Shown in pieces: positions 475 through 58,403 of a stretch of DNA of 64,000 nucleotides. Positions within the stretch are counted from its first letter, which is position 1; every line of letters begins with the position of its first letter. The DNA lies in sequence record MZ501058; one strand, 5' to 3'. The translations under genes and the position numbers were made by a program. Source of the DNA: Escherichia phage DaisyDussoix. The notes under the pieces are model-generated. The model made no database searches and was not told the origin of the DNA. It was given only the letters and a program-made list of their open reading frames with translations.

Positions 475-576
475 TCTTTTGAATAGCTTAATAATTAGGT
501 CGGAATTTCCTCTAGCTAGTAAGTATAGCTTTTCATAATCGAAGAATTTAATTTTTGTTTTCTCCTCGAATTTATG

Positions 577-621
577 TATATATTATACTAGATTTCGAGA
601 GAATTTAGCAACTAAAATTTT
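577..621 (-). promoter_or_regulatory. T5-type sigma70 promoter (-35 TTGCTA, -10 TATAAT)
   Basis: rc reads AAAAATTTTAGTTGCTA..N18..TATAAT with AT-rich upstream tract. Confidence 0.55.
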
Positions 622-716: not shown

Positions 717-2047
717 ATTTTAGCTAATTGAACTGCTTTCTCCGGAGTCATAGTAATAGTTTTCCACCCGTTGTTACGATATACTGCCATACGTCCAGAA
801 GCCTGTCTTAGTCCAGTGCCACCTTTCATAATTAGATCTACAACAATAGGGTCGAGTTTACCATCGACAATACGTTGAACACGGCCTGCAAGCTGTTCAA
901 TGAGAGATTCATTATTAATGAGGCTTCCCATTATTAAACAAGATAGCTCATTAAGGGAAATACCTTCAGAGAAGATACTTTGAGCTGCTGCAAGTACACA
1001 AGGCCCACCTTTTGCTATATCTTCCTGAATTTTTAATCGGTCATCTAAGTGGGTTGCGCCAATAATCTCATAGGTTGTGACTCCTCTCTGAGATAGTGCT
1101 TCTAGTACTGTTTGGATTAACTCTGTTCTATCACTTACAATGAGTACTTTATGCCCCATATTCACGTATAAATGTGCTAGATTTATAATAGTCTCTCGAT
1201 ATTCCGGATGGTTATATACATCATTAGCACGCAAAGCCCATGGAACATTCTGGTTTCCAGACAATTCAACTGGTACGGAGTACCTGTGGATTGTAGGAGC
1301 AACAGTATTATTAACCGGCGGGCTAAATATCTTATATCCAAAGAAATCTTTGAACATAACCTGCAAGCCATCCTTACGTTTTAGTGTACCGGATAGTCCA
1401 ATTTTATAGTGAGCACATGATATTTCTAGGAAGTTAGTGAAAGTTGTAGCTACACAATGGTGAACTTCATCAACTATAACAGTACCGAATACTTTAGAAA
1501 GATTATTCGCATGTTTATTCACTGTTTGAATATTACTGACTACAATTGGTGGATCAATATTGTACTTCCCAGAACCTATGATGCCTGGTTCAAACCCAAA
1601 CCATTTACGAACTTCTGCCGCCCACATTTCACGAATGGATGTATTCGTACAGATTACCAAAGTTTTCTGGCCAAATTTATACGCAAGTGCAAGGGCTAGG
1701 ATAGTTTTACCAAATCCAGGCTTACCATTAATAATACAAGTATCATCGCATTCTTCGTATATTGGAAGCTGATCTTCTTCACGCAATTTGAACTTAGGTT
1801 TTGGTATATCTACCGGAGCTAATGTGCGTTTATCGACTAATTCGTATTTTACTCCTTTAGCATCTAGTAAGTCCAGACGCGTAATAGGAATCCACTTAAT
1901 CTCTTTGGCAACAACACCACTATTCTTATACATAATAGGGTATTTACTAGTCATTGTCTCTATGTGATAAGTGGTTTGCTTACTACAATAATCCCAAAGT
2001 TCATCATCGGGCTTGAAATAGGCTTTATTAGATATAACAACCTTCAT
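695..2047 (-). CDS. SF2 DNA helicase (T5 D10-like)
   Basis: Walker A GKPGFGKT, DEVH box (VIVDEVHH), SGT and QLAGRVQR helicase motifs; 450 aa. Confidence 0.8.
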   Translation of the reverse strand: MKVVISNKAYFKPDDELWDYCSKQTTYHIETMTSKYPIMYKNSGVVAKEIKWIPITRLDLLDAKGVKYELVDKRTLAPVDIPKPKFKLREEDQLPIYEECDDTCIINGKPGFGKTILALALAYKFGQKTLVICTNTSIREMWAAEVRKWFGFEPGIIGSGKYNIDPPIVVSNIQTVNKHANNLSKVFGTVIVDEVHHCVATTFTNFLEISCAHYKIGLSGTLKRKDGLQVMFKDFFGYKIFSPPVNNTVAPTIHRYSVPVELSGNQNVPWALRANDVYNHPEYRETIINLAHLYVNMGHKVLIVSDRTELIQTVLEALSQRGVTTYEIIGATHLDDRLKIQEDIAKGGPCVLAAAQSIFSEGISLNELSCLIMGSLINNESLIEQLAGRVQRIVDGKLDPIVVDLIMKGGTGLRQASGRMAVYRNNGWKTITMTPEKAVQLAKIAFGNSS

Positions 2048-6971: not shown

Positions 6972-8491
6972 ATATCGCTGGCCTGTTCACCTGTTGAATT
7001 TTCAGCTTTGTCTTTCTTAGCACGTTTAGATTGAGCCAGCTTATCCTTCTCAATAGGGATAACGAACTCAGCTTCCATTTGAGATATATCTTCCATTGCG
7101 AGATTGGTAGTGTTATCCATCCGCAGGGTTTCCCAGTTCATTTTAGGCATAAACTTCACGCTATCAGAAGAACGAGTCTTAACGAAGTCAAACATAATAG
7201 CACCTTGACCATTATCCGCTTTTGCAGCATTAAGATTAGCAGCCATGTCTGCGGAATCAAGAATCCCCTTTGACATACGTGTTCTACCATCTTGATCAAT
7301 CTGGTAAGGAGCTACACCAGCCACGTTATGTTTCTGGCAGATAGATTTGAAAGACGAGCTAACAACCATCTGTTCTTTCCAGTCATACATATCAATGGTT
7401 TTAGAGTCTGGAAGTCGGGTTTGGTTAATATAGTCTAGTAAAGCTACTGTAACTTTATCCCCATATCTAGCAACTAATTTATTTAATTCTACGTCAACTG
7501 TTGTAATAGACAGCTCAGGATCATAAACAATAATCATAGGAGTATGTAGCTCATACCCTTCTATTAGCTTACTTTCCATATCGTAGAAATCACTCATCTT
7601 AGCCATTGTGTACTGTTTAACGAAGTTATCGAAAAGCTCTTCACCACCGTTAAACATCCTAGCTCTAGTTCTGGCTAATCTCAACAGAGCTGCACCTTCT
7701 AGAGTATTATTACGCATTGCTAGTGCTGATACACCAGCTAACATAGCTAGATTACGTCTAAATACTTCATGTTCTTTCATCTCAATTGAGAAGTATGGAG
7801 CAATATCTCCATTCAAATATTGCTGAACCTGTATGTTTGAACAGATAATGGATTTACCAGTACCACGCCAACCACCAAGCAGTAACGTTTCTGTGCGAGC
7901 TAAACCAATTTGAGCGTCGAACTCATTACAAATACCAAGAGCGATTAAGTTCAGTTTGGTATCTTCTTCTCTCTGGAAAATACGCATGTTATCTGCGTTG
8001 AATACTTTTCCAGTATTCGTTACTTTCTCTTCTAATTTTAAGTGAAGGGAGGCAACTCGGTTAAGAATTTCTCCCTGATCCAGCATTGTTAAGTCTTGAA
8101 GCACGTCTGTTTCTAGGAGCTTCAGGAATAAATCCTGTGTATATTCAGCCTCTAGGACTTCAAGTGCCTGTTCCATGCTCACTTCTGGAATTTGAGTGTT
8201 AGCTAAGACGACTAGAGCTTGAGAAAGGCGGGCGTTCCTATTAGCTTCAAGCATAAGTGCGTCAATGGACGGCATTGTGTTATATTTTTTATAATAATTC
8301 TGGACGGCTTGGTAAATTGAGGAGAAAGCGTCATTAAAATGATCTTTATGCAGTTTTGAGAATGTTTCCAATGCTATTTGCTTCTGTTCGGAAGCTAGAA
8401 GCATCTTCAACACTACAGCTTGCACGTTAAACAAGGTCATTCTCCTTTGCACGCTTTCGTGCCTTCTAAATGCAAAAAGGGGAAGGAGCAT
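6968..8491 (-). CDS. DnaB-like replicative helicase (true start probably ATG at 8440)
   Basis: Walker A GGWRGTGKS, FSIEMK and LLDYINQ DnaB C-domain motifs; annotated start lies inside a terminator-like hairpin. Confidence 0.7.
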   Translation of the reverse strand: MLLPLFAFRRHESVQRRMTLFNVQAVVLKMLLASEQKQIALETFSKLHKDHFNDAFSSIYQAVQNYYKKYNTMPSIDALMLEANRNARLSQALVVLANTQIPEVSMEQALEVLEAEYTQDLFLKLLETDVLQDLTMLDQGEILNRVASLHLKLEEKVTNTGKVFNADNMRIFQREEDTKLNLIALGICNEFDAQIGLARTETLLLGGWRGTGKSIICSNIQVQQYLNGDIAPYFSIEMKEHEVFRRNLAMLAGVSALAMRNNTLEGAALLRLARTRARMFNGGEELFDNFVKQYTMAKMSDFYDMESKLIEGYELHTPMIIVYDPELSITTVDVELNKLVARYGDKVTVALLDYINQTRLPDSKTIDMYDWKEQMVVSSSFKSICQKHNVAGVAPYQIDQDGRTRMSKGILDSADMAANLNAAKADNGQGAIMFDFVKTRSSDSVKFMPKMNWETLRMDNTTNLAMEDISQMEAEFVIPIEKDKLAQSKRAKKDKAENSTGEQASDI

Positions 8492-8512
8492 AGCCCCCTC
8501 CCCTTAGGTTTA
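8468..8512 (-). terminator. intrinsic terminator-like hairpin + U-tract between D5-like gene and helicase
   Basis: minus strand AAGGGGAGGGGGCUAUGCUCCUUCCCCUUUUUGCAUUU. Confidence 0.45.
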
Positions 8513-8522
8513 ATTTACCAGA

Positions 8523-9290
8523 TTATTCAGCAGCCGCAGCTTTTGCATCCAGTTTAGCACGCTTAGCGGCACCATCATAGTCCTTAGCAACCAGACCACG
8601 ACGAGACAGCATAGATTTAACACCGCGCTCAGACTTACCAGTTTTCTCAGCGATCTCAGCAACAGTCATGTTAACCAGATCCAGCCCTTCTAACAGATCT
8701 TCACGAGTTTTAGCACTTGAAGTTTCCTGTACCGGCATAGCGGCGATACGACCTTCACGAAGCAGGCTCAGAGCTTTACCACGGATCTGCTTGATATTAC
8801 GACCGAAGTGAGCAGCGATAGCTTCAATAGTAGCCCCAGCAACAACCTGATTAACAAAATCAGTTTCTTCATCAGGAGTGAAGGAACGAACAGCGGCAGT
8901 TTTTTCAGTTGGTTTAACAGAAGCGGTCATTTCCAGACTCAGGATCTTACCCTGTACCTGTTTAGCACCGAACTGACCACCAGCCACAGCAGCAGCGATT
9001 TCAGCATAGGTATACTGACCAGCATGAGCGTTCAGGAAATCAACCAGTTCAGCTTCCTGCTCAGGAGTCCACGGGGATTTCTGTACTTCGTTAGCTTTCT
9101 GTACTTCAAAACCTTCTTTACGCAGTTTAGAGCCAACAGAGCGAGCAGTAACATCTTTGCCAGTTTCAGCAGCCAGTTCAGTAGCAATAGCAGCTACTTG
9201 TTCTTGAGAGATTACAGCAACACCCAGAGCAGTGGCTTTTGCTTTCAGAGACTCGGTTACACCTTCTACGTTCCAGTTCAGTTTAGACAT
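8523..9290 (-). CDS. Ala-rich DNA-binding-like protein with four HTH-like repeats (possible T5 D5 homolog)
   Basis: 255 aa; repeated xxEIAxxxGKxxxxVxxKLxxxG units; about 28 kDa. Confidence 0.5.
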   Translation of the reverse strand: MSKLNWNVEGVTESLKAKATALGVAVISQEQVAAIATELAAETGKDVTARSVGSKLRKEGFEVQKANEVQKSPWTPEQEAELVDFLNAHAGQYTYAEIAAAVAGGQFGAKQVQGKILSLEMTASVKPTEKTAAVRSFTPDEETDFVNQVVAGATIEAIAAHFGRNIKQIRGKALSLLREGRIAAMPVQETSSAKTREDLLEGLDLVNMTVAEIAEKTGKSERGVKSMLSRRGLVAKDYDGAAKRAKLDAKAAAAE

Positions 9291-10056
9291 TATTATTTTT
9301 CTCCAATAGTTCTTTAATCGACAGGATTTCTATCCCATTCGTTTCGGCTTTCTTATAAGATGAGGAAGAACGTTTTGATTCATCCTCACAGATCAGGTAT
9401 TTGACGTCTTTGGTAACGGATTTCTTAACCGTATATCCTAGACCTTCTAAATAGTTTGTTGCATCCGTTCTATTTGCAAAATCTTGCAAAGATCCGGTAA
9501 TACATACCGCGATTTTATTTGGCTGGGCAACTAAATCATCAGTAACGACGGTTTTAGCTTTCGCACCTTTTGAAAATTTCCACGGTAATTCGATAACATC
9601 CTTGCCTTGTGGGGAATTTAGCCAGGCTTTATAATTTTCTCCAGCCTTGCCGTCAGCCTTCACATCATGGAAGCTAGTGCAATTTTGGGATAATTTCTTT
9701 GCTGCAACCTCTCCGATTAGAGGGATTCCTAAAGAACCGAGAACTGAACCAAAGTCAATGTCTCCGCGAACTTTAGTATTTAATTCGCTAATTAACTTAG
9801 CGGCAACCTTGCTACCCACGGCTCTAACCAAATCTTCTTCGGTTAGGTAAAATAGTTCTGAAATCTTCGTCAGCTCCAGCTTCTCAATAGTTTTTGGGCC
9901 AAAGCCCTTTAACTTCATTTTTGTACAGAAGTTCTCAATTAACTTACTTGATTGCGCTGGACAGTTGGACTTATTCCGACAGAATAATTGTCCGTTGACA
10001 AGATCTAGCTTAGAACCACAAGAGGGACATTGTGTTGGAATTTCGATTTTCATCAA
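9283..10056 (-). CDS. lig: NAD-dependent DNA ligase, C-terminal subunit (Zn finger, HhH, BRCT)
   Basis: CPSCGSKL...CRNKSNC zinc finger, HhH region, BRCT-like C-terminus. Confidence 0.8.
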   Translation of the reverse strand: MMKIEIPTQCPSCGSKLDLVNGQLFCRNKSNCPAQSSKLIENFCTKMKLKGFGPKTIEKLELTKISELFYLTEEDLVRAVGSKVAAKLISELNTKVRGDIDFGSVLGSLGIPLIGEVAAKKLSQNCTSFHDVKADGKAGENYKAWLNSPQGKDVIELPWKFSKGAKAKTVVTDDLVAQPNKIAVCITGSLQDFANRTDATNYLEGLGYTVKKSVTKDVKYLICEDESKRSSSSYKKAETNGIEILSIKELLEKNNNV

Positions 10057-10077
10057 ATTTCTTCCTTATCAATTTAT

Positions 10078-10120
10078 ATAAATATTATAGCAAGTATTTA
10101 AGCATTTAGCAACTACAATT
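10078..10120 (-). promoter_or_regulatory. T5-type promoter inside the ligase split
   Basis: rc AAAATTGTAGTTGCTA-N17-TATAAT. Confidence 0.55.
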
Positions 10121-10171
10121 TTAACTAACTTTGCTTACCCTCGCCATAACTTTCTATCCCTCAACTGAATG

Positions 10172-10212
10172 ATAATAGTATATACCTAAGCGGCGAAAAT
10201 GTCAATAACCAC
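10172..10212 (-). promoter_or_regulatory. consensus-like sigma70 promoter (TTGACA-N17-TATACT) inside the ligase split
   Basis: rc GGTTATTGACATTTTCGCCGCTTAGGTATATACT. Confidence 0.5.
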
Positions 10213-10257
10213 TTTATAATTCCGATATGGTAGATGGGTAGCAAAGGGTTACATATA

Positions 10258-11229
10258 TTAATCGTATACTCGCTCTACTATGCACGGGATTACACCACCA
10301 GCACGAATTACTCGAATCTGGCAACCGATCTCTAGATCAAGAGAGTTAATATAATCAACGTTATTAAGAGTCGCCTTAACAATTGTAGCATCATCAATAA
10401 TTACCGGTTCGAAATAACCAACTGGAGTTACTTTACCAGAAGCCCCTACCTGCCATTCAACTTTAGTAAGAGTTGTAATTTCGCCTTCTTCATCCTCTTT
10501 AATAGCGAATGCTCCACGAGGAAATTTATTAGTCCAGCCTTCACGGAAGAATTTGTTGTTGTCATTAATACGAACAACTTTACCGTCCGTCGGAATCCAT
10601 TTAAAGAAGGAACACACATTAACAACTGTTAAGAAGTTCTCATTCTCTAGCCAAAGCATATCTTTTAAATACGTTTCTGTAATACCTACAGATTCAGCAG
10701 AACACTGGACACCATATGCAACGAAGATTAAACCACCTTCCCCGATACGTTGTACGAAATCATCGCTATCTTTGAGGTTAATAGCACCAGAGGCAAAGTT
10801 ACGTTTATTTTCTACTTCTTTTGTAATTAGAACTTCGCCAGTGATTTGAGTAGGTACTTTTTGGGAAATCTTTTTAGGAATGTTCAGCAATCTTACGTTG
10901 CTTGTGACATCATTCCCTAGAATACCATTACCACGAGTTAGTGCTTGAACAAATTCGCCATTAATATATAACAGAGAAATCGCACAACCATCTAACTTAT
11001 CAGTTTCTACCTGACCTAATGGGTTAAACGGAGGTTTATCTCCACGATTATAATAAACTTTCTGTAAAGAATACATACGATACAGATGTGGAATATCACC
11101 CTTAGGCCCGATCTCTTCTTCTAATGGAAATCTTTTAATCAGACGATCATATTCTTCGTCAGAGATTAAAGACATTCCCTGGTAATATGCCTCTTGACAA
11201 CGTTTAATAAAGTCTTTTACATTATTCAT
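10258..11229 (-). CDS. lig: NAD-dependent DNA ligase, N-terminal adenylation/OB subunit
   Basis: KxDG adenylation motif (ETDKLDGCAISL), TRGNG motif; 323 aa. Confidence 0.8.
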   Translation of the reverse strand: MNNVKDFIKRCQEAYYQGMSLISDEEYDRLIKRFPLEEEIGPKGDIPHLYRMYSLQKVYYNRGDKPPFNPLGQVETDKLDGCAISLLYINGEFVQALTRGNGILGNDVTSNVRLLNIPKKISQKVPTQITGEVLITKEVENKRNFASGAINLKDSDDFVQRIGEGGLIFVAYGVQCSAESVGITETYLKDMLWLENENFLTVVNVCSFFKWIPTDGKVVRINDNNKFFREGWTNKFPRGAFAIKEDEEGEITTLTKVEWQVGASGKVTPVGYFEPVIIDDATIVKATLNNVDYINSLDLEIGCQIRVIRAGGVIPCIVERVYD

Positions 11230-11434
11230 CGTCTGCGATTTCCATTTTGAGTTCTTTATTATACTGAGCAGCCATACCAGCTAAATCAGCAGCTTCTTTC
11301 AACCACGCATCTTTGTACGCTTTCTGGTTTGGAGTGCCGATACTATCCTGGTAATTGATTCTTGCTATGGAGAGCAAATTAAGTTTTGCTTGAATTTTTG
11401 GAAGTGTTACTTTCATAATTGATCCTCCTATCAA
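11222..11434 (-). CDS. hypothetical small protein (likely start at 11416)
   Basis: AGGAGG RBS 7 nt before internal ATG (MKVTLPK...). Confidence 0.45.
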   Translation of the reverse strand: MIGGSIMKVTLPKIQAKLNLLSIARINYQDSIGTPNQKAYKDAWLKEAADLAGMAAQYNKELKMEIADDE

Positions 11435-11440
11435 TTTATA

Positions 11441-11484
11441 TAAATATTATATAACAAAACTGAGTTGAAAGCAAATACATTTAT
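11441..11484 (-). promoter_or_regulatory. T5-type sigma70 promoter
   Basis: rc TTGCTT-N17-TATAAT. Confidence 0.55.
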
Positions 11485-11501
11485 AAAGAAAAAGCCAAGA
11501 A

Positions 11502-11810
11502 CTAGGCATTCTTGGCTTTGAGTTCTTCAGCTCGTTTCTGTACTTCATGTAAAACCTCAGATTCGCTAAGAATCTGTGTAAACGCATAGAAAAGCTGTGA
11601 TGTTGTTTCTAGGGTGTAAGGAAAAGAGAAGCCAGATTTCGTTGGAAACCATTCATCATTAATATCAAGAAGCCAGTAACGAATACCCATGTATAGATTC
11701 CCACGAAATTCAGATACTGTTAATCTTACTTGTTCTCCCTCCTTCTCCCAAAGTATGATGGACTGGTCATCAACGTGTCCTTCATAGTTTTGATTTACCT
11801 GTTCGCTCAT
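11502..11810 (-). CDS. PC4/YdbC-like ssDNA-binding fold protein (tentative)
   Basis: 102 aa; VRLTVSEFRGNLYMGIRYWL...DEWFPTKSGFSF resembles PC4-like core. Confidence 0.45.
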   Translation of the reverse strand: MSEQVNQNYEGHVDDQSIILWEKEGEQVRLTVSEFRGNLYMGIRYWLLDINDEWFPTKSGFSFPYTLETTSQLFYAFTQILSESEVLHEVQKRAEELKAKNA

Positions 11811-11821
11811 TTACATATCCC

Positions 11822-11850
11822 AAATACACAAAAAGCCCCATATAGGGGCT
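11822..11850 (-). terminator. intrinsic terminator
   Basis: minus strand AGCCCC-UAUAU-GGGGCU followed by UUUUUGUGUAUUU. Confidence 0.6.
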
Positions 11851-11860
11851 AATTGGTTTC

Positions 11861-12157
11861 TTATCGGCCTACTGGAGAAGCACGATCTAACTCTGATTGG
11901 AGGCTAGTCACACGACGGACTTTCTCGACAGGAATAAAACGGAAGCTATCATTAGTACGAGAGAAGACAAGGATCTCATCATCTTTCGCTTTACGAATAC
12001 GTTCACGTTTAATACGCTCAGCCAGATATTTATCTTGGGCTGGATCAAATTCCATCGTACCCTGAAGGTACGTGGTTCCTTTCTGACGAAGTTTCTCGTA
12101 ATGAAGATAAAACTCACCAAATTTTTCACATTGTGCGATAATTTCAGCTTTGGTCAT
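11861..12157 (-). CDS. hypothetical protein
   Basis: ORF track 98 aa; chosen over overlapping alternative-frame ORFs because flanking genes are minus-strand. Confidence 0.4.
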   Translation of the reverse strand: MTKAEIIAQCEKFGEFYLHYEKLRQKGTTYLQGTMEFDPAQDKYLAERIKRERIRKAKDDEILVFSRTNDSFRFIPVEKVRRVTSLQSELDRASPVGR

Positions 12158-12193
12158 AACTGTGTTCCTTTTGTTGGTGGATTTATCTAAAAA

Positions 12194-12604
12194 TTACTTA
12201 GTGATAGCTCGGATTGCTTCTGCTAGATGAGCAGCCGCTTTACCGGTCAGTTTGTCGATAATTGCATCATCCAGAAAATCTGGTGCTAGGCCAGCATCAG
12301 AGAATGCTGAACGAAGATCGGCATGAGCTTGGGCTTTGGAAGTACGAGAACCACCAGAAGCTTTTTCTCCAGTAGATGCGCTAGATTTAGAAGCAGAGCC
12401 AGCAGCTTTCTTGATATACACACCTGCTTTAGTTAGCTTCATACGAAAACCGTTCGGAGTTACACCATTTTCCTGAGCAATCTCGCTAACAATTTCCATG
12501 CTAACACCCGGACGTTCATCCTCTGGGAATTGCTCCATACGAGCAACGTATTCGGAAGACATTTTTTCGAACAGTTCATCAGTCCACTGAGTTGGAGTAG
12601 TCAT
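12194..12604 (-). CDS. hypothetical protein with HTH-like repeat related to 8523..9290 product
   Basis: 136 aa; MEIVSEIAQENGVTPNGFRMKLTKAG unit. Confidence 0.5.
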   Translation of the reverse strand: MTTPTQWTDELFEKMSSEYVARMEQFPEDERPGVSMEIVSEIAQENGVTPNGFRMKLTKAGVYIKKAAGSASKSSASTGEKASGGSRTSKAQAHADLRSAFSDAGLAPDFLDDAIIDKLTGKAAAHLAEAIRAITK

Positions 12605-12656
12605 ATTTTATATTTCCTTAATTAAGAATTAAACAGAATAGTTCTTTCAAACTATG

Positions 12657-12700
12657 AGAATATTATATCAAGAATTATAGGATTAAGCAACTGAAATTTT
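12657..12700 (-). promoter_or_regulatory. T5-type sigma70 promoter
   Basis: rc AAAAATTTCAGTTGCTT-N17-TATAAT. Confidence 0.55.
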
Positions 12701-17919: not shown

Positions 17920-18293
17920 CTTCCCCTTTCACGCTACACTGCCGCTTCACTATACCGCACAAATCCTTGAGGATGGCCGCTAAGCCAGATTTGCTCACCT
18001 AATGCTTCATGTACTAGCTCATACTAGATGCAGTATACCTTACGTCATCACTTCTCAGAGTTTTTCACTCTTCCCGTCTCACTTCACAACCACCTCACAC
18101 TAGGTTGCTTCGAGGCCTTACCAGGGTTCCTACGGGGTGTAGATCGCTAAGTATTCTATTAACTATTTGTTTAAAAACTAACACGTAACAGTTAAAACAA
18201 CCCTTAATGGGGCAGCCTAACTGTTCCGTATCGCGGATTGTAAACAAGAAAAATTAGCAAAATCAGTTTTTACTAATGTCTCTCAATTCAATA

Positions 18294-18335
18294 TAAATAT
18301 TATAGCAAGATTTTGAGCATCGTGCAAGTAAATTT
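18294..18335 (-). promoter_or_regulatory. T5-type sigma70 promoter (-35 TTGCAC)
   Basis: rc AAAAATTTACTTGCAC-N18-TATAAT. Confidence 0.5.
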
Positions 18336-23579: not shown

Positions 23580-23618
23580 CTACTATTATAACTCATTCGA
23601 AGGCGGATGTCAACAATA
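23580..23618 (-). promoter_or_regulatory. consensus sigma70 promoter for nrdD (TTGACA-N17-TATAAT)
   Basis: rc TTGTTGACATCCGCCTTCGAATGAGTTATAATAG. Confidence 0.6.
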
Positions 23619-40505: not shown

Positions 40506-40550
40506 AAAAATGTACTTGCCTTTTGCTTTAAATTTCTGATATAATAGTTA
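40506..40550 (+). promoter_or_regulatory. T5-type sigma70 promoter
   Basis: AAAAATGTACTTGCCT-N18-TATAAT. Confidence 0.5.
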
Positions 40551-40575
40551 TATAAATTGATGAAGGAGTTAACTA

Positions 40576-44993: not shown

Positions 44994-45018
44994 TGCTTAA
45001 TTTCTTGTTATAATATTT
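44976..45018 (+). promoter_or_regulatory. T5-type sigma70 promoter
   Basis: AAAAATGTACTTGCTT-N17-TATAAT. Confidence 0.55.
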
Positions 45019-45029
45019 ATATAAATTGA

Positions 45030-48187: not shown

Positions 48188-48230
48188 AAAAATTCATTTG
48201 CTTTCTCTCTTATTTATTGTTATAATAATT
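48188..48230 (+). promoter_or_regulatory. T5-type sigma70 promoter
   Basis: AAAAATTCATTTGCTT-N17-TATAAT. Confidence 0.6.
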
Positions 48231-48256
48231 ATATAAATTAATGAGAGGGAAACCAA

Positions 48257-50326: not shown

Positions 50327-50370
50327 AATAATTCATTTGCTAAACCTCTCTTTTCTTGCTATAATATGTT
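50327..50370 (+). promoter_or_regulatory. T5-type sigma70 promoter
   Basis: AATTCATTTGCTA-N17-TATAAT. Confidence 0.6.
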
Positions 50371-50395
50371 TATAAATTGATGAGAGAGGTTTGAA

Positions 50396-56994: not shown

Positions 56995-57038
56995 AAAAAA
57001 GTAGTTGACTTTTAGCCCTAGTTATTATATAATATATA
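56995..57038 (+). promoter_or_regulatory. sigma70 promoter (-35 TTGACT, -10 TATAAT)
   Basis: AAAAAGTAGTTGACT-N17-TATAAT. Confidence 0.55.
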
Positions 57039-57066
57039 CATAAATTAGTTAAGAGAGGTATATATT

Positions 57067-58345: not shown

Positions 58346-58380
58346 ACTTGCTTTTTGCTAAAAATTTTGGTATAATATTT
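58338..58380 (+). promoter_or_regulatory. T5-type sigma70 promoter
   Basis: ATTTTACTTGCTT-N17-TATAAT. Confidence 0.55.
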
Positions 58381-58403
58381 ATATAGATTGATAGGAGGAT
58401 TAA

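What the first reader, a model, noticed from the sequence alone, without database searches (positions are those of the whole stretch)
9283..11229. Split NAD-dependent DNA ligase with two promoters in the 200-bp spacer
The adenylation/OB half (10258..11229) and Zn-finger/HhH/BRCT half (9283..10056) are separate ORFs. The spacer carries a near-consensus TTGACA-N17-TATACT promoter and a T5-type promoter, so the C-terminal half can be transcribed independently. The spacer is too short and promoter-rich to be an intron or intein.
Basis: seen in the sequence. Interest (0 to 1): 0.45.

Follow-up and report, generated by a model that had tools for sequence, protein, structure and literature searches.

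The report
T5-type split NAD DNA ligase
This is the already-described two-gene NAD-dependent DNA ligase (ligA/ligB) of T5-like phages, and the two promoters between the genes are already annotated in phage T5, so the finding is real but ordinary.

Summary
On the minus strand, 10258..11229 encodes the Ia/adenylation/OB half of an NAD-dependent ligase. A 204-nt non-coding spacer separates them and holds TTGACA-N17-TATACT and a T5-type TTGCTA-N17-(TG)TATAAT promoter.

The window is a T5-like phage (Demerecviridae). The last 175 nt of the spacer are 100% identical to phage T5. The T5 RefSeq record annotates the genes as ligA and ligB and the two promoters as P-K28b and P-K28a. The split ligase was reported with the T5 genome (Wang 2005, cited in PMC1684257). 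PDB entries 9hu3/9i5i hold both chains of the Providencia phage PR1/PSTCR5 homologue.

What I add: the split and the tandem promoter pair, at fixed distances from the ligB ATG, occur in all seven relatives from other Demerecviridae lineages that I compared. Some of them carry extra ORFs between the halves. The break lies in the OB–Zn linker. Stops close all three frames, there is no intron-like RNA and there are no intein residues.

The parts
11491..11519 (-). Terminator-like hairpin with a T-run that closes the upstream transcription unit, after the homologue of the T5.115 transcriptional regulator
   Evidence: 12-bp stem, T tail; sequence
11446..11474 (-). T5-type early promoter (TTGCTT-N17-TATAAT followed by ATTTATATAAATTGATA) upstream of orf64 and ligA. 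T5 annotates a promoter at the equivalent position.
   Evidence: T5 record promoter at 65284..65358
11222..11416 (-). Small ORF of 64 aa (phrog_8267, function unknown). Its stop overlaps the ligA start by 8 nt. T5 lacks it.
   Evidence: T5 has only an 87-nt gap at this position
10258..11229 (-). ligA: the NAD-dependent DNA ligase subunit holding short domain Ia, the adenylation (NTase) domain and the OB domain. 323 aa, KxDG lysine at K78.
   Evidence: Pfam; phrog_3359 at 6.5e-176; PDB 9hu3_A at 2.2e-104; 98.1% aa identity to T5 LigA
10054..10257 (-). Non-coding ligA-ligB spacer of 204 nt, 31% GC, with stops in all three frames
   Evidence: no Rfam hit; fold z-score -1.27
10177..10205 (-). Distal promoter TTGACA-N17-TATACT, the homologue of T5 promoter P-K28b. 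Predicted start near 10170 (inferred).
   Evidence: T5 annotation; the -35 lies at -151 to -155 from the ligB ATG in all eight phages compared, window included
10084..10112 (-). Proximal T5-type promoter TTGCTA-N17-TATAAT with an extended -10 TG and the downstream box ATTTATATAAATTGAT. It is the homologue of T5 promoter P-K28a. Predicted start near 10077 (inferred).
   Evidence: T5 annotation; the -35 lies at -58 to -60 in six phages at the strict threshold; weaker matches in Athena and, by alignment, in Spivey
10061..10067 (-). Shine-Dalgarno AAGGAAG for ligB
   Evidence: sequence; the Spivey and Seafire records annotate a ribosome-binding site here
9283..10053 (-). ligB: the ligase subunit holding the Zn finger (C9, C12, C25, C31), HhH and BRCT domains. 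256 aa from the ATG.
   Evidence: Pfam BRCT and HhH; phrog_3498 at 1.5e-135; PDB 9hu3_B at 6.4e-81 and E. coli LigA residues 402-529
8523..9290 (-). D5 DNA-binding/transcription-factor gene. Its ATG overlaps the ligB stop by 8 nt, so it is co-transcribed with ligB and probably translationally coupled to it.
   Evidence: phrog_323 D5-like; the same overlap in T5
8477..8505 (-). Strong intrinsic terminator (13-bp stem with 8 GC pairs, then a T-run) that ends the ligA-ligB-D5 block
   Evidence: sequence

Best explanation
The window comes from a T5-like phage (Demerecviridae) and carries that family's standard two-subunit NAD-dependent DNA ligase. LigA (Ia + adenylation + OB) holds the catalytic lysine K78 and should self-adenylate with NAD+. 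LigB (Zn finger + HhH + BRCT) supplies the DNA-clamping half. The two proteins assemble non-covalently into the functional nick-sealing enzyme. The break lies exactly in the OB-Zn linker. The genes sit in one terminator-bounded block: promoter, orf64, ligA, [P-K28b, P-K28a], ligB, D5, terminator. So ligB and D5 are read both from the upstream promoter and from the two strong internal early promoters, which should give more ligB/D5 than ligA message. Shown here: gene structure, domain content, the identity of the promoters with annotated T5 promoters, family-wide conservation, and the existence of a solved structure entry holding both chains of a homologue. Inferred: assembly of the two proteins in this phage, the exact transcription starts, and any excess of LigB.
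For: - 441 phage records match the region at 80-99% identity, with ligA/ligB 'subunit A/B' annotations.
- T5 RefSeq annotates ligA (T5.116), promoter P-K 28b, promoter P-K 28a and ligB (T5.117) in this order. The window is 100% identical to T5 over the last 175 nt of the spacer, against 95-96% in the genes.
[quoted passage not shown] 2005).
- PDB 9hu3/9i5i contain chain A (339 aa) and chain B ('DNA ligase subunit B', 248 aa). Chain B is 100% identical to Providencia phage PR1/PSTCR5.
- The halves tile the full-length ligase profile phrog_3869 at positions 9-381 and 388-654. Against contiguous jumbo-phage ligases the junction falls in the OB-Zn linker, with 6-8 linker residues missing.
- The split and the tandem promoters are found in all seven relatives compared: T5, Epseptimavirus 1-23, Sugarlandvirus Spivey, Priunavirus PR1, Novosibvirus PM135, Vibrio 70E37.1 and Thalassavirus Athena.
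- The block is bounded by terminators, and none was detected inside the spacer.
- A LigA-type ligase truncated after the OB domain adenylates itself but cannot ligate (PMC1684257). This fits LigB being required.
Against: - None of the tools measures transcription or protein association in this phage.
- The generic sigma-70 scan is not enriched overall in this AT-rich DNA, so promoter function rests on conservation and on the T5 annotation.
- I could not retrieve the primary promoter paper or any paper for 9hu3.
- The Providencia PR1 record annotates a terminator directly after ligA, so read-through from ligA into ligB may not be general.
Confidence: 0.9

Rival explanations
1. The two halves also, or instead, work independently. 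LigA would act as a minimal ligase. LigB, made in excess together with D5 from its own promoters, would act as a separate HhH/BRCT DNA-binding or recruitment factor.
For: - Independent strong promoters are tied to ligB, at a fixed distance from its ATG in all eight phages compared.
- ligB is translationally coupled to D5 through an 8-nt overlap.
- In Vibrio phage Athena the halves lie 1048 nt apart with two genes between them.
Against: - LigA-type enzymes truncated after the OB domain adenylate but do not ligate (PMC1684257).
- The PDB entries contain both chains together.
- Both genes were present in every Demerecviridae locus I examined.
Confidence: 0.1
2. The gene is a broken, decaying ligase pseudogene, and the host LigA does the work.
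For: Stop codons interrupt what is one gene in bacteria and in jumbo phages.
Against: - Both ORFs are intact in the seven relatives examined from other Demerecviridae lineages, and full-length LigB matches occur in about 930 phage records.
- Catalytic K78 and all four Zn cysteines are retained.
- Protein identity to T5 (98.1% and 96.9%) exceeds nucleotide identity (95.1% and 96.4%).
- Dedicated PHROG families exist for each half, and a homologue has a solved structure entry.
Confidence: 0.02
3. A single-chain ligase is restored by RNA splicing, ribosomal frameshifting or bypassing, or split-intein protein splicing.
For: ligA and ligB are in the same frame when counted from the TTG (201 nt) or the ATG (204 nt).
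Against: - The shared frame has six stops including the ligA stop, and all three frames are closed.
- There is no Rfam intron hit and no unusual RNA structure (z -1.27).
- The only GAT landing codon near the ligB start is out of frame (sequence).
- Spacer length runs from 192 to 1048 nt, with whole genes inside in other genera.
- There are no intein-sized extensions, because the halves tile the profile with a 6-position gap.
- The PDB entries have two separate chains.
Confidence: 0.02

Closest known systems
Bacteriophage T5 ligA (T5.116) / ligB (T5.117) with promoters P-K28b and P-K28a (NC_005859 65364..67317)
   Same: Same gene order and same break point. LigA is 98.1% and LigB 96.9% identical at the protein level. 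The last 175 nt of the spacer, including both promoters, are 100% identical.
   Different: There is a 2-nt length difference just after the ligA stop. The window also carries an extra 64-aa ORF (phrog_8267) directly upstream of ligA that T5 lacks.
Providencia phage PR1/PSTCR5 two-chain ligase, PDB 9hu3 and 9i5i (chain A 339 aa, chain B 248 aa)
   Same: The split falls at the same OB/Zn junction, both halves are homologous (about 57% and 56% aa identity), and the same tandem promoters lie upstream of ligB.
   Different: It belongs to a different genus (Priunavirus). The PR1 record annotates a terminator straight after ligA. I found no publication for these entries in the library.
Single-chain bacterial LigA (E. 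coli 2owo) and jumbo-phage NAD ligases (PS119XW, RSL2; phrog_3869)
   Same: Same domain order: Ia, NTase, OB, Zn, HhH, BRCT. The KxDG lysine and four Zn cysteines are present.
   Different: These are one polypeptide of about 650-690 aa. Identity across the junction is only about 30-35%. The T5-type enzyme lacks 6-8 linker residues and is about 90 aa shorter overall.

Membership tests
NAD-dependent DNA ligase (LigA family) | Nucleotidyltransferase domain with the KxDG adenylation lysine | tested here: met
   Pfam DNA_ligase_aden at 5.8e-24. K78 in ETDKLDG aligns with the active-site region of many LigA structures: query 78 aligns to 114 of 1b04 and to 123 of 1zau.
NAD-dependent DNA ligase (LigA family) | N-terminal domain Ia, the NMN-binding domain that specifies NAD+ | tested here: inconclusive
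   The first ~46 aa carry a YYxGxxxISDxEYDxL-like motif and align to the full-length ligase profile from position 9. The domain is shorter than in E. coli, and cofactor use was not tested.
NAD-dependent DNA ligase (LigA family) | OB-fold domain after the NTase domain | tested here: met
   Pfam DNA_ligase_OB at 3.9e-22, residues 252-321.
NAD-dependent DNA ligase (LigA family) | Cys4 zinc finger, HhH domain and BRCT domain | tested here: met
   C9, C12, C25 and C31 in LigB. LigB aligns to 2owo residues 402-529. BRCT scores 31.7 bits against a 21.3 cut-off. The HhH Pfam hits fall below their cut-offs.
NAD-dependent DNA ligase (LigA family) | All domains on a single polypeptide | tested here: not met
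   Two ORFs are separated by 204 nt with stops in all frames.
T5-type two-subunit ligase (ligA/ligB of Demerecviridae; phrog_3359 + phrog_3498) | Separate LigA (Ia-NTase-OB) and LigB (Zn-HhH-BRCT) genes broken at the OB/Zn linker, with ligB directly followed by D5 | tested here: met
   phrog_3359 at 6.5e-176 and phrog_3498 at 1.5e-135. The junction alignment is identical to T5. Synteny with D5 holds in T5, PM135, Athena, 1-23 and Spivey.
T5-type two-subunit ligase (ligA/ligB of Demerecviridae; phrog_3359 + phrog_3498) | The two polypeptides associate to form the active enzyme | not testable with these tools
   Only indirect evidence: PDB 9hu3/9i5i hold both chains of the Providencia phage homologue.
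T5 early promoters (P-K28a / P-K28b) | Sequence identity with the annotated T5 promoters and the class signature (-35, 17-nt spacer, -10, conserved downstream ATAAATTGA box) | tested here: met
   100% identity over 175 nt with T5. T5 annotation. The class motif occurs 11 times in the window against 0.03 expected.
T5 early promoters (P-K28a / P-K28b) | Transcription initiation by host RNA polymerase at these sites | not testable with these tools
   From my own memory these promoters were isolated by function by Gentz and Bujard (1985). That paper could not be retrieved here.

The most novel reading that the evidence does not exclude
The split may be maintained across Demerecviridae because a fixed tandem-promoter module makes ligB-D5 a separately and more strongly expressed unit. 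LigB would then be made in excess over LigA and would have a second, LigA-independent role, for example as an HhH/BRCT nick-binding or replisome-recruiting factor acting with D5. The region between the ligA stop and that promoter module would serve as a family-wide landing site for small accessory genes.
Probability: 0.12. Interest if true: 0.35.

Novelty: already known. Interest (0 to 1): 0.1.

Why it matters
This matters little as a discovery. The split T5 ligase has been in the literature since the 2005 genome paper, the two promoters are named features of the T5 record, and a homologous two-chain enzyme has solved-structure entries in the PDB.

The modest value added is comparative. The break point and the tandem promoter pair are ancestral to the family and fixed relative to ligB, while the sequence between ligA and the promoters is free to gain genes. 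That gives a clean natural example of a multidomain enzyme split at a domain linker that coincides with an internal promoter boundary. It is useful for split-enzyme engineering and for annotation: the two ORFs should be named subunits A and B, not treated as a frameshifted pseudogene.

Tried and rejected
- **Intron or structured RNA in the spacer.** The Rfam E-value scan of 8400..12200 gave only a sub-threshold sRNA hit at 11830..11861, outside the spacer. Folding of the spacer gave z = -1.27. Rejected.
- **Read-through, frameshift or bypassing.** All three frames are closed, and the candidate GAT landing codon is out of frame. Rejected.
- **Split intein.** There are no extra residues at the junction. 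Rejected.
- **An 8-codon mini-ORF (MARVSKVS)** behind an SD-like GAGGGA downstream of the distal promoter. It occurs only in the T5/Epseptimavirus group and is not conserved in other genera. Treated as chance.
- **Literature.** Searches for a paper on 9HU3, for the Providencia phage ligase, for T5 transcription-start mapping and for 'K28a/K28b' returned nothing relevant.
Full report
**1. What is in the sequence**

On the minus strand there are two ORFs.
- 10258..11229 gives 323 aa. It matches Pfam DNA_ligase_aden (5.8e-24) and DNA_ligase_OB (3.9e-22). It carries the KxDG lysine at K78, which aligns with the active-site region of many solved LigA structures.
- 9283..10056 gives 257 aa from a TTG. 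It matches BRCT (1.8e-07) with weaker HhH hits. It aligns to residues 402-529 of E. coli LigA 2owo, the Zn-finger plus HhH region, and has the four zinc cysteines.

The likelier ligB start is the ATG at 10053. It follows the Shine-Dalgarno AAGGAAG and matches the N-termini of all relatives. That gives a 204-nt spacer of 31% GC with stops in all three frames. The frame shared by the two genes has six stops, counting the ligA stop.

The spacer holds two promoter matches:
- TTGACA-N17-TATACT at 10205..10177
- TTGCTA-N17-TATAAT, with an extended-10 TG, at 10112..10084

**2. Is it more than chance?**

The permissive promoter scan is not enriched overall in this AT-rich DNA: 7 against 8.6 expected in 3.8 kb, and 64 against 59.8 in 20 kb. 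The count alone therefore proves nothing. These two sites do stand out:
- The exact pattern TTGACA-N16-18-TATAMT occurs twice in 64 kb against 0.09 expected.
- The T5-type -10/downstream box of the proximal promoter occurs 11 times against 0.03 expected. It always lies on the strand matching local gene orientation.

**3. Identity of the locus**

The 2.2-kb region matches 441 phage records at 80-99% identity. [quoted passage not shown]

The RefSeq record of phage T5 lists, in order: a promoter, ligA (T5.116), 'promoter P-K 28b', 'promoter P-K 28a', ligB (T5.117) and D5. The window compares to T5 as follows:

| Region | Identity to T5 |
|---|---|
| Last 175 nt of the spacer | 100% |
| ligA, nucleotide | 95.1% |
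| ligB, nucleotide | 96.4% |
| LigA, protein | 98.1% |
| LigB, protein | 96.9% |

From my own memory, the P-K28 promoters come from the functional selection of strong T5 promoters by Gentz and Bujard (1985). I could not retrieve that paper, so the claim rests on the record's annotation.

The split ligase itself is in the literature. [quoted passage not shown] 2005. PMC3632103 and PMC4319617 list ligA and ligB as subunits.

PDB entries 9hu3 and 9i5i contain a 339-aa chain A and a 248-aa chain B named 'DNA ligase subunit B'. Chain B is 100% identical to Providencia phages PR1 and PSTCR5, which belong to Demerecviridae.

**4. The junction**

The two halves hit dedicated PHROG families for stand-alone subunits: phrog_3359 at 6.5e-176 and phrog_3498 at 1.5e-135. 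They also tile the full-length ligase profile phrog_3869 at positions 9-381 and 388-654.

In an alignment with the contiguous ligases of jumbo phages PS119XW and RSL2, LigA ends just after the last OB strand (...GGVIPCIVERVYD). LigB begins 8 residues before the first zinc cysteine. About 6-8 linker residues are absent.

Neither side carries the extra sequence an intein or split intein would need. The spacer has no Rfam match and no unusual predicted structure (z -1.27). A T4 gene-60-style bypass is not supported, because the only matching GAT codon near the ligB start is out of frame.

**5. Comparative picture (the added value here)**

A junction-spanning protein query found two separate pieces in every Demerecviridae hit listed. 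It found a single piece only in distant ligases at about 27-36% identity, mostly from jumbo phages. I examined seven relatives in detail:

| Phage | Lineage | Between ligA stop and ligB start |
|---|---|---|
| T5 | Tequintavirus | 202 nt, non-coding |
| Salmonella 1-23 | Epseptimavirus | 358 nt, 156 of them extra |
| Spivey | Sugarlandvirus | 199 nt |
| PR1 | Priunavirus | 192 nt |
| PM135 | Novosibvirus | 344 nt, includes a 55-aa ORF |
| Vibrio 70E37.1 | unassigned Demerecviridae | 443 nt, includes a 98-aa ORF |
| Athena | Thalassavirus | 1048 nt, includes two genes, one DprA-like |

Despite these differences, a near-consensus distal promoter has its -35 at -151 to -155 from the ligB ATG in all of them. 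A proximal extended-10 promoter has its -35 at -58 to -60 in six phages at the strict threshold. Athena has a weaker match, and Spivey has a TTGCTT -35 seen by alignment. The columns that never vary in the alignment are the promoter hexamers themselves.

In the closer relatives this non-coding module is more conserved than the flanking genes: 100% against 95-96% for T5, 96.6% against 91-94% for 1-23, and 75.7% against 67% for Spivey.

The split and its promoter pair are therefore ancestral to the family. The promoters belong to ligB, and the variable zone lies between the ligA stop and the distal promoter.

**6. How it most likely works**

The block is bounded by terminators: a hairpin at 11519..11491 and a strong one at 8505..8477. 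Inside it, in order:
- a T5-type promoter at 11474..11446
- a 64-aa ORF whose stop overlaps the ligA start
- ligA
- the two internal promoters
- ligB
- D5, whose ATG overlaps the ligB stop by 8 nt

No terminator was detected in the spacer. By inference, ligA is read from the upstream promoter only, while ligB and D5 are read from three promoters. LigB would then be made at least as abundantly as LigA.

Established knowledge says a LigA-type enzyme truncated after the OB domain self-adenylates but cannot seal nicks (PMC1684257). LigA should therefore need LigB in trans. The two-chain PDB entries of the Providencia homologue are consistent with a complex. Assembly and transcription starts in this phage are inferred, not shown.

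**7. Verdict**

The feature is the canonical, already annotated ligA/P-K28b/P-K28a/ligB arrangement of T5-like phages. Novelty is 'already known' and interest is low. The residual open question is why the split is kept, and whether LigB is made in excess or has a second role. That question is modest and my data do not address it.

Noticed in passing
window 11222..11416 (-): A 64-aa ORF (phrog_8267, function unknown) sits between the homologue of the T5.115 regulator and ligA, and its stop overlaps the ligA ATG by 8 nt. T5 lacks it and has only an 87-nt gap there. Several closer relatives annotate a hypothetical protein at this position.
   Followed up: partly
window 569..590, 10071..10092, 11433..11454, 12649..12670, 18286..18307 (all -); 40537..40558, 45006..45027, 48218..48239, 50357..50378, 57025..57046, 58368..58389 (all +): There are eleven copies of the T5-type early-promoter -10/downstream box (TGnTATAATATTnnnATAAAnT) against 0.03 expected. 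All copies below about 18 kb are on the minus strand and all above about 40 kb are on the plus strand, which points to two divergently transcribed early-gene blocks.
   Followed up: partly
window 23585..23613 (-): This is the only other exact TTGACA-N16-18-TATAMT match in the window (TTGACA-N17-TATAAT). I did not look at what it drives.
   Followed up: no
window 11834..11850 (both strands): A palindromic GC-rich hairpin (AGCCCC-ATATA-GGGGCT) was called as a terminator on both strands. It carries a T-run on the minus strand only. It also gave a sub-threshold Rfam hit (SpF51 sRNA, 26.5 bits against a cut-off of 50).
   Followed up: no
L004 (Vibrio phage Athena) 2470..3362; L002 (Proteus phage PM135) 74..706 and 1697..1864; L003 (Vibrio phage 70E37.1) 1698..1994; L005 (Salmonella phage 1-23) 1705..~1860: The stretch between the ligA stop and the distal ligB promoter varies between genera. 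It holds small hypothetical ORFs in some, and in Athena a DprA-like gene that lies upstream of ligA in PM135. This looks like an insertion hot spot.
   Followed up: partly
window 10136..10162 (-): An 8-codon mini-ORF (MARVSKVS) lies 9 nt after an SD-like GAGGGA, downstream of the distal promoter. It is conserved only within the T5/Epseptimavirus group, so it is probably chance.
   Followed up: yes
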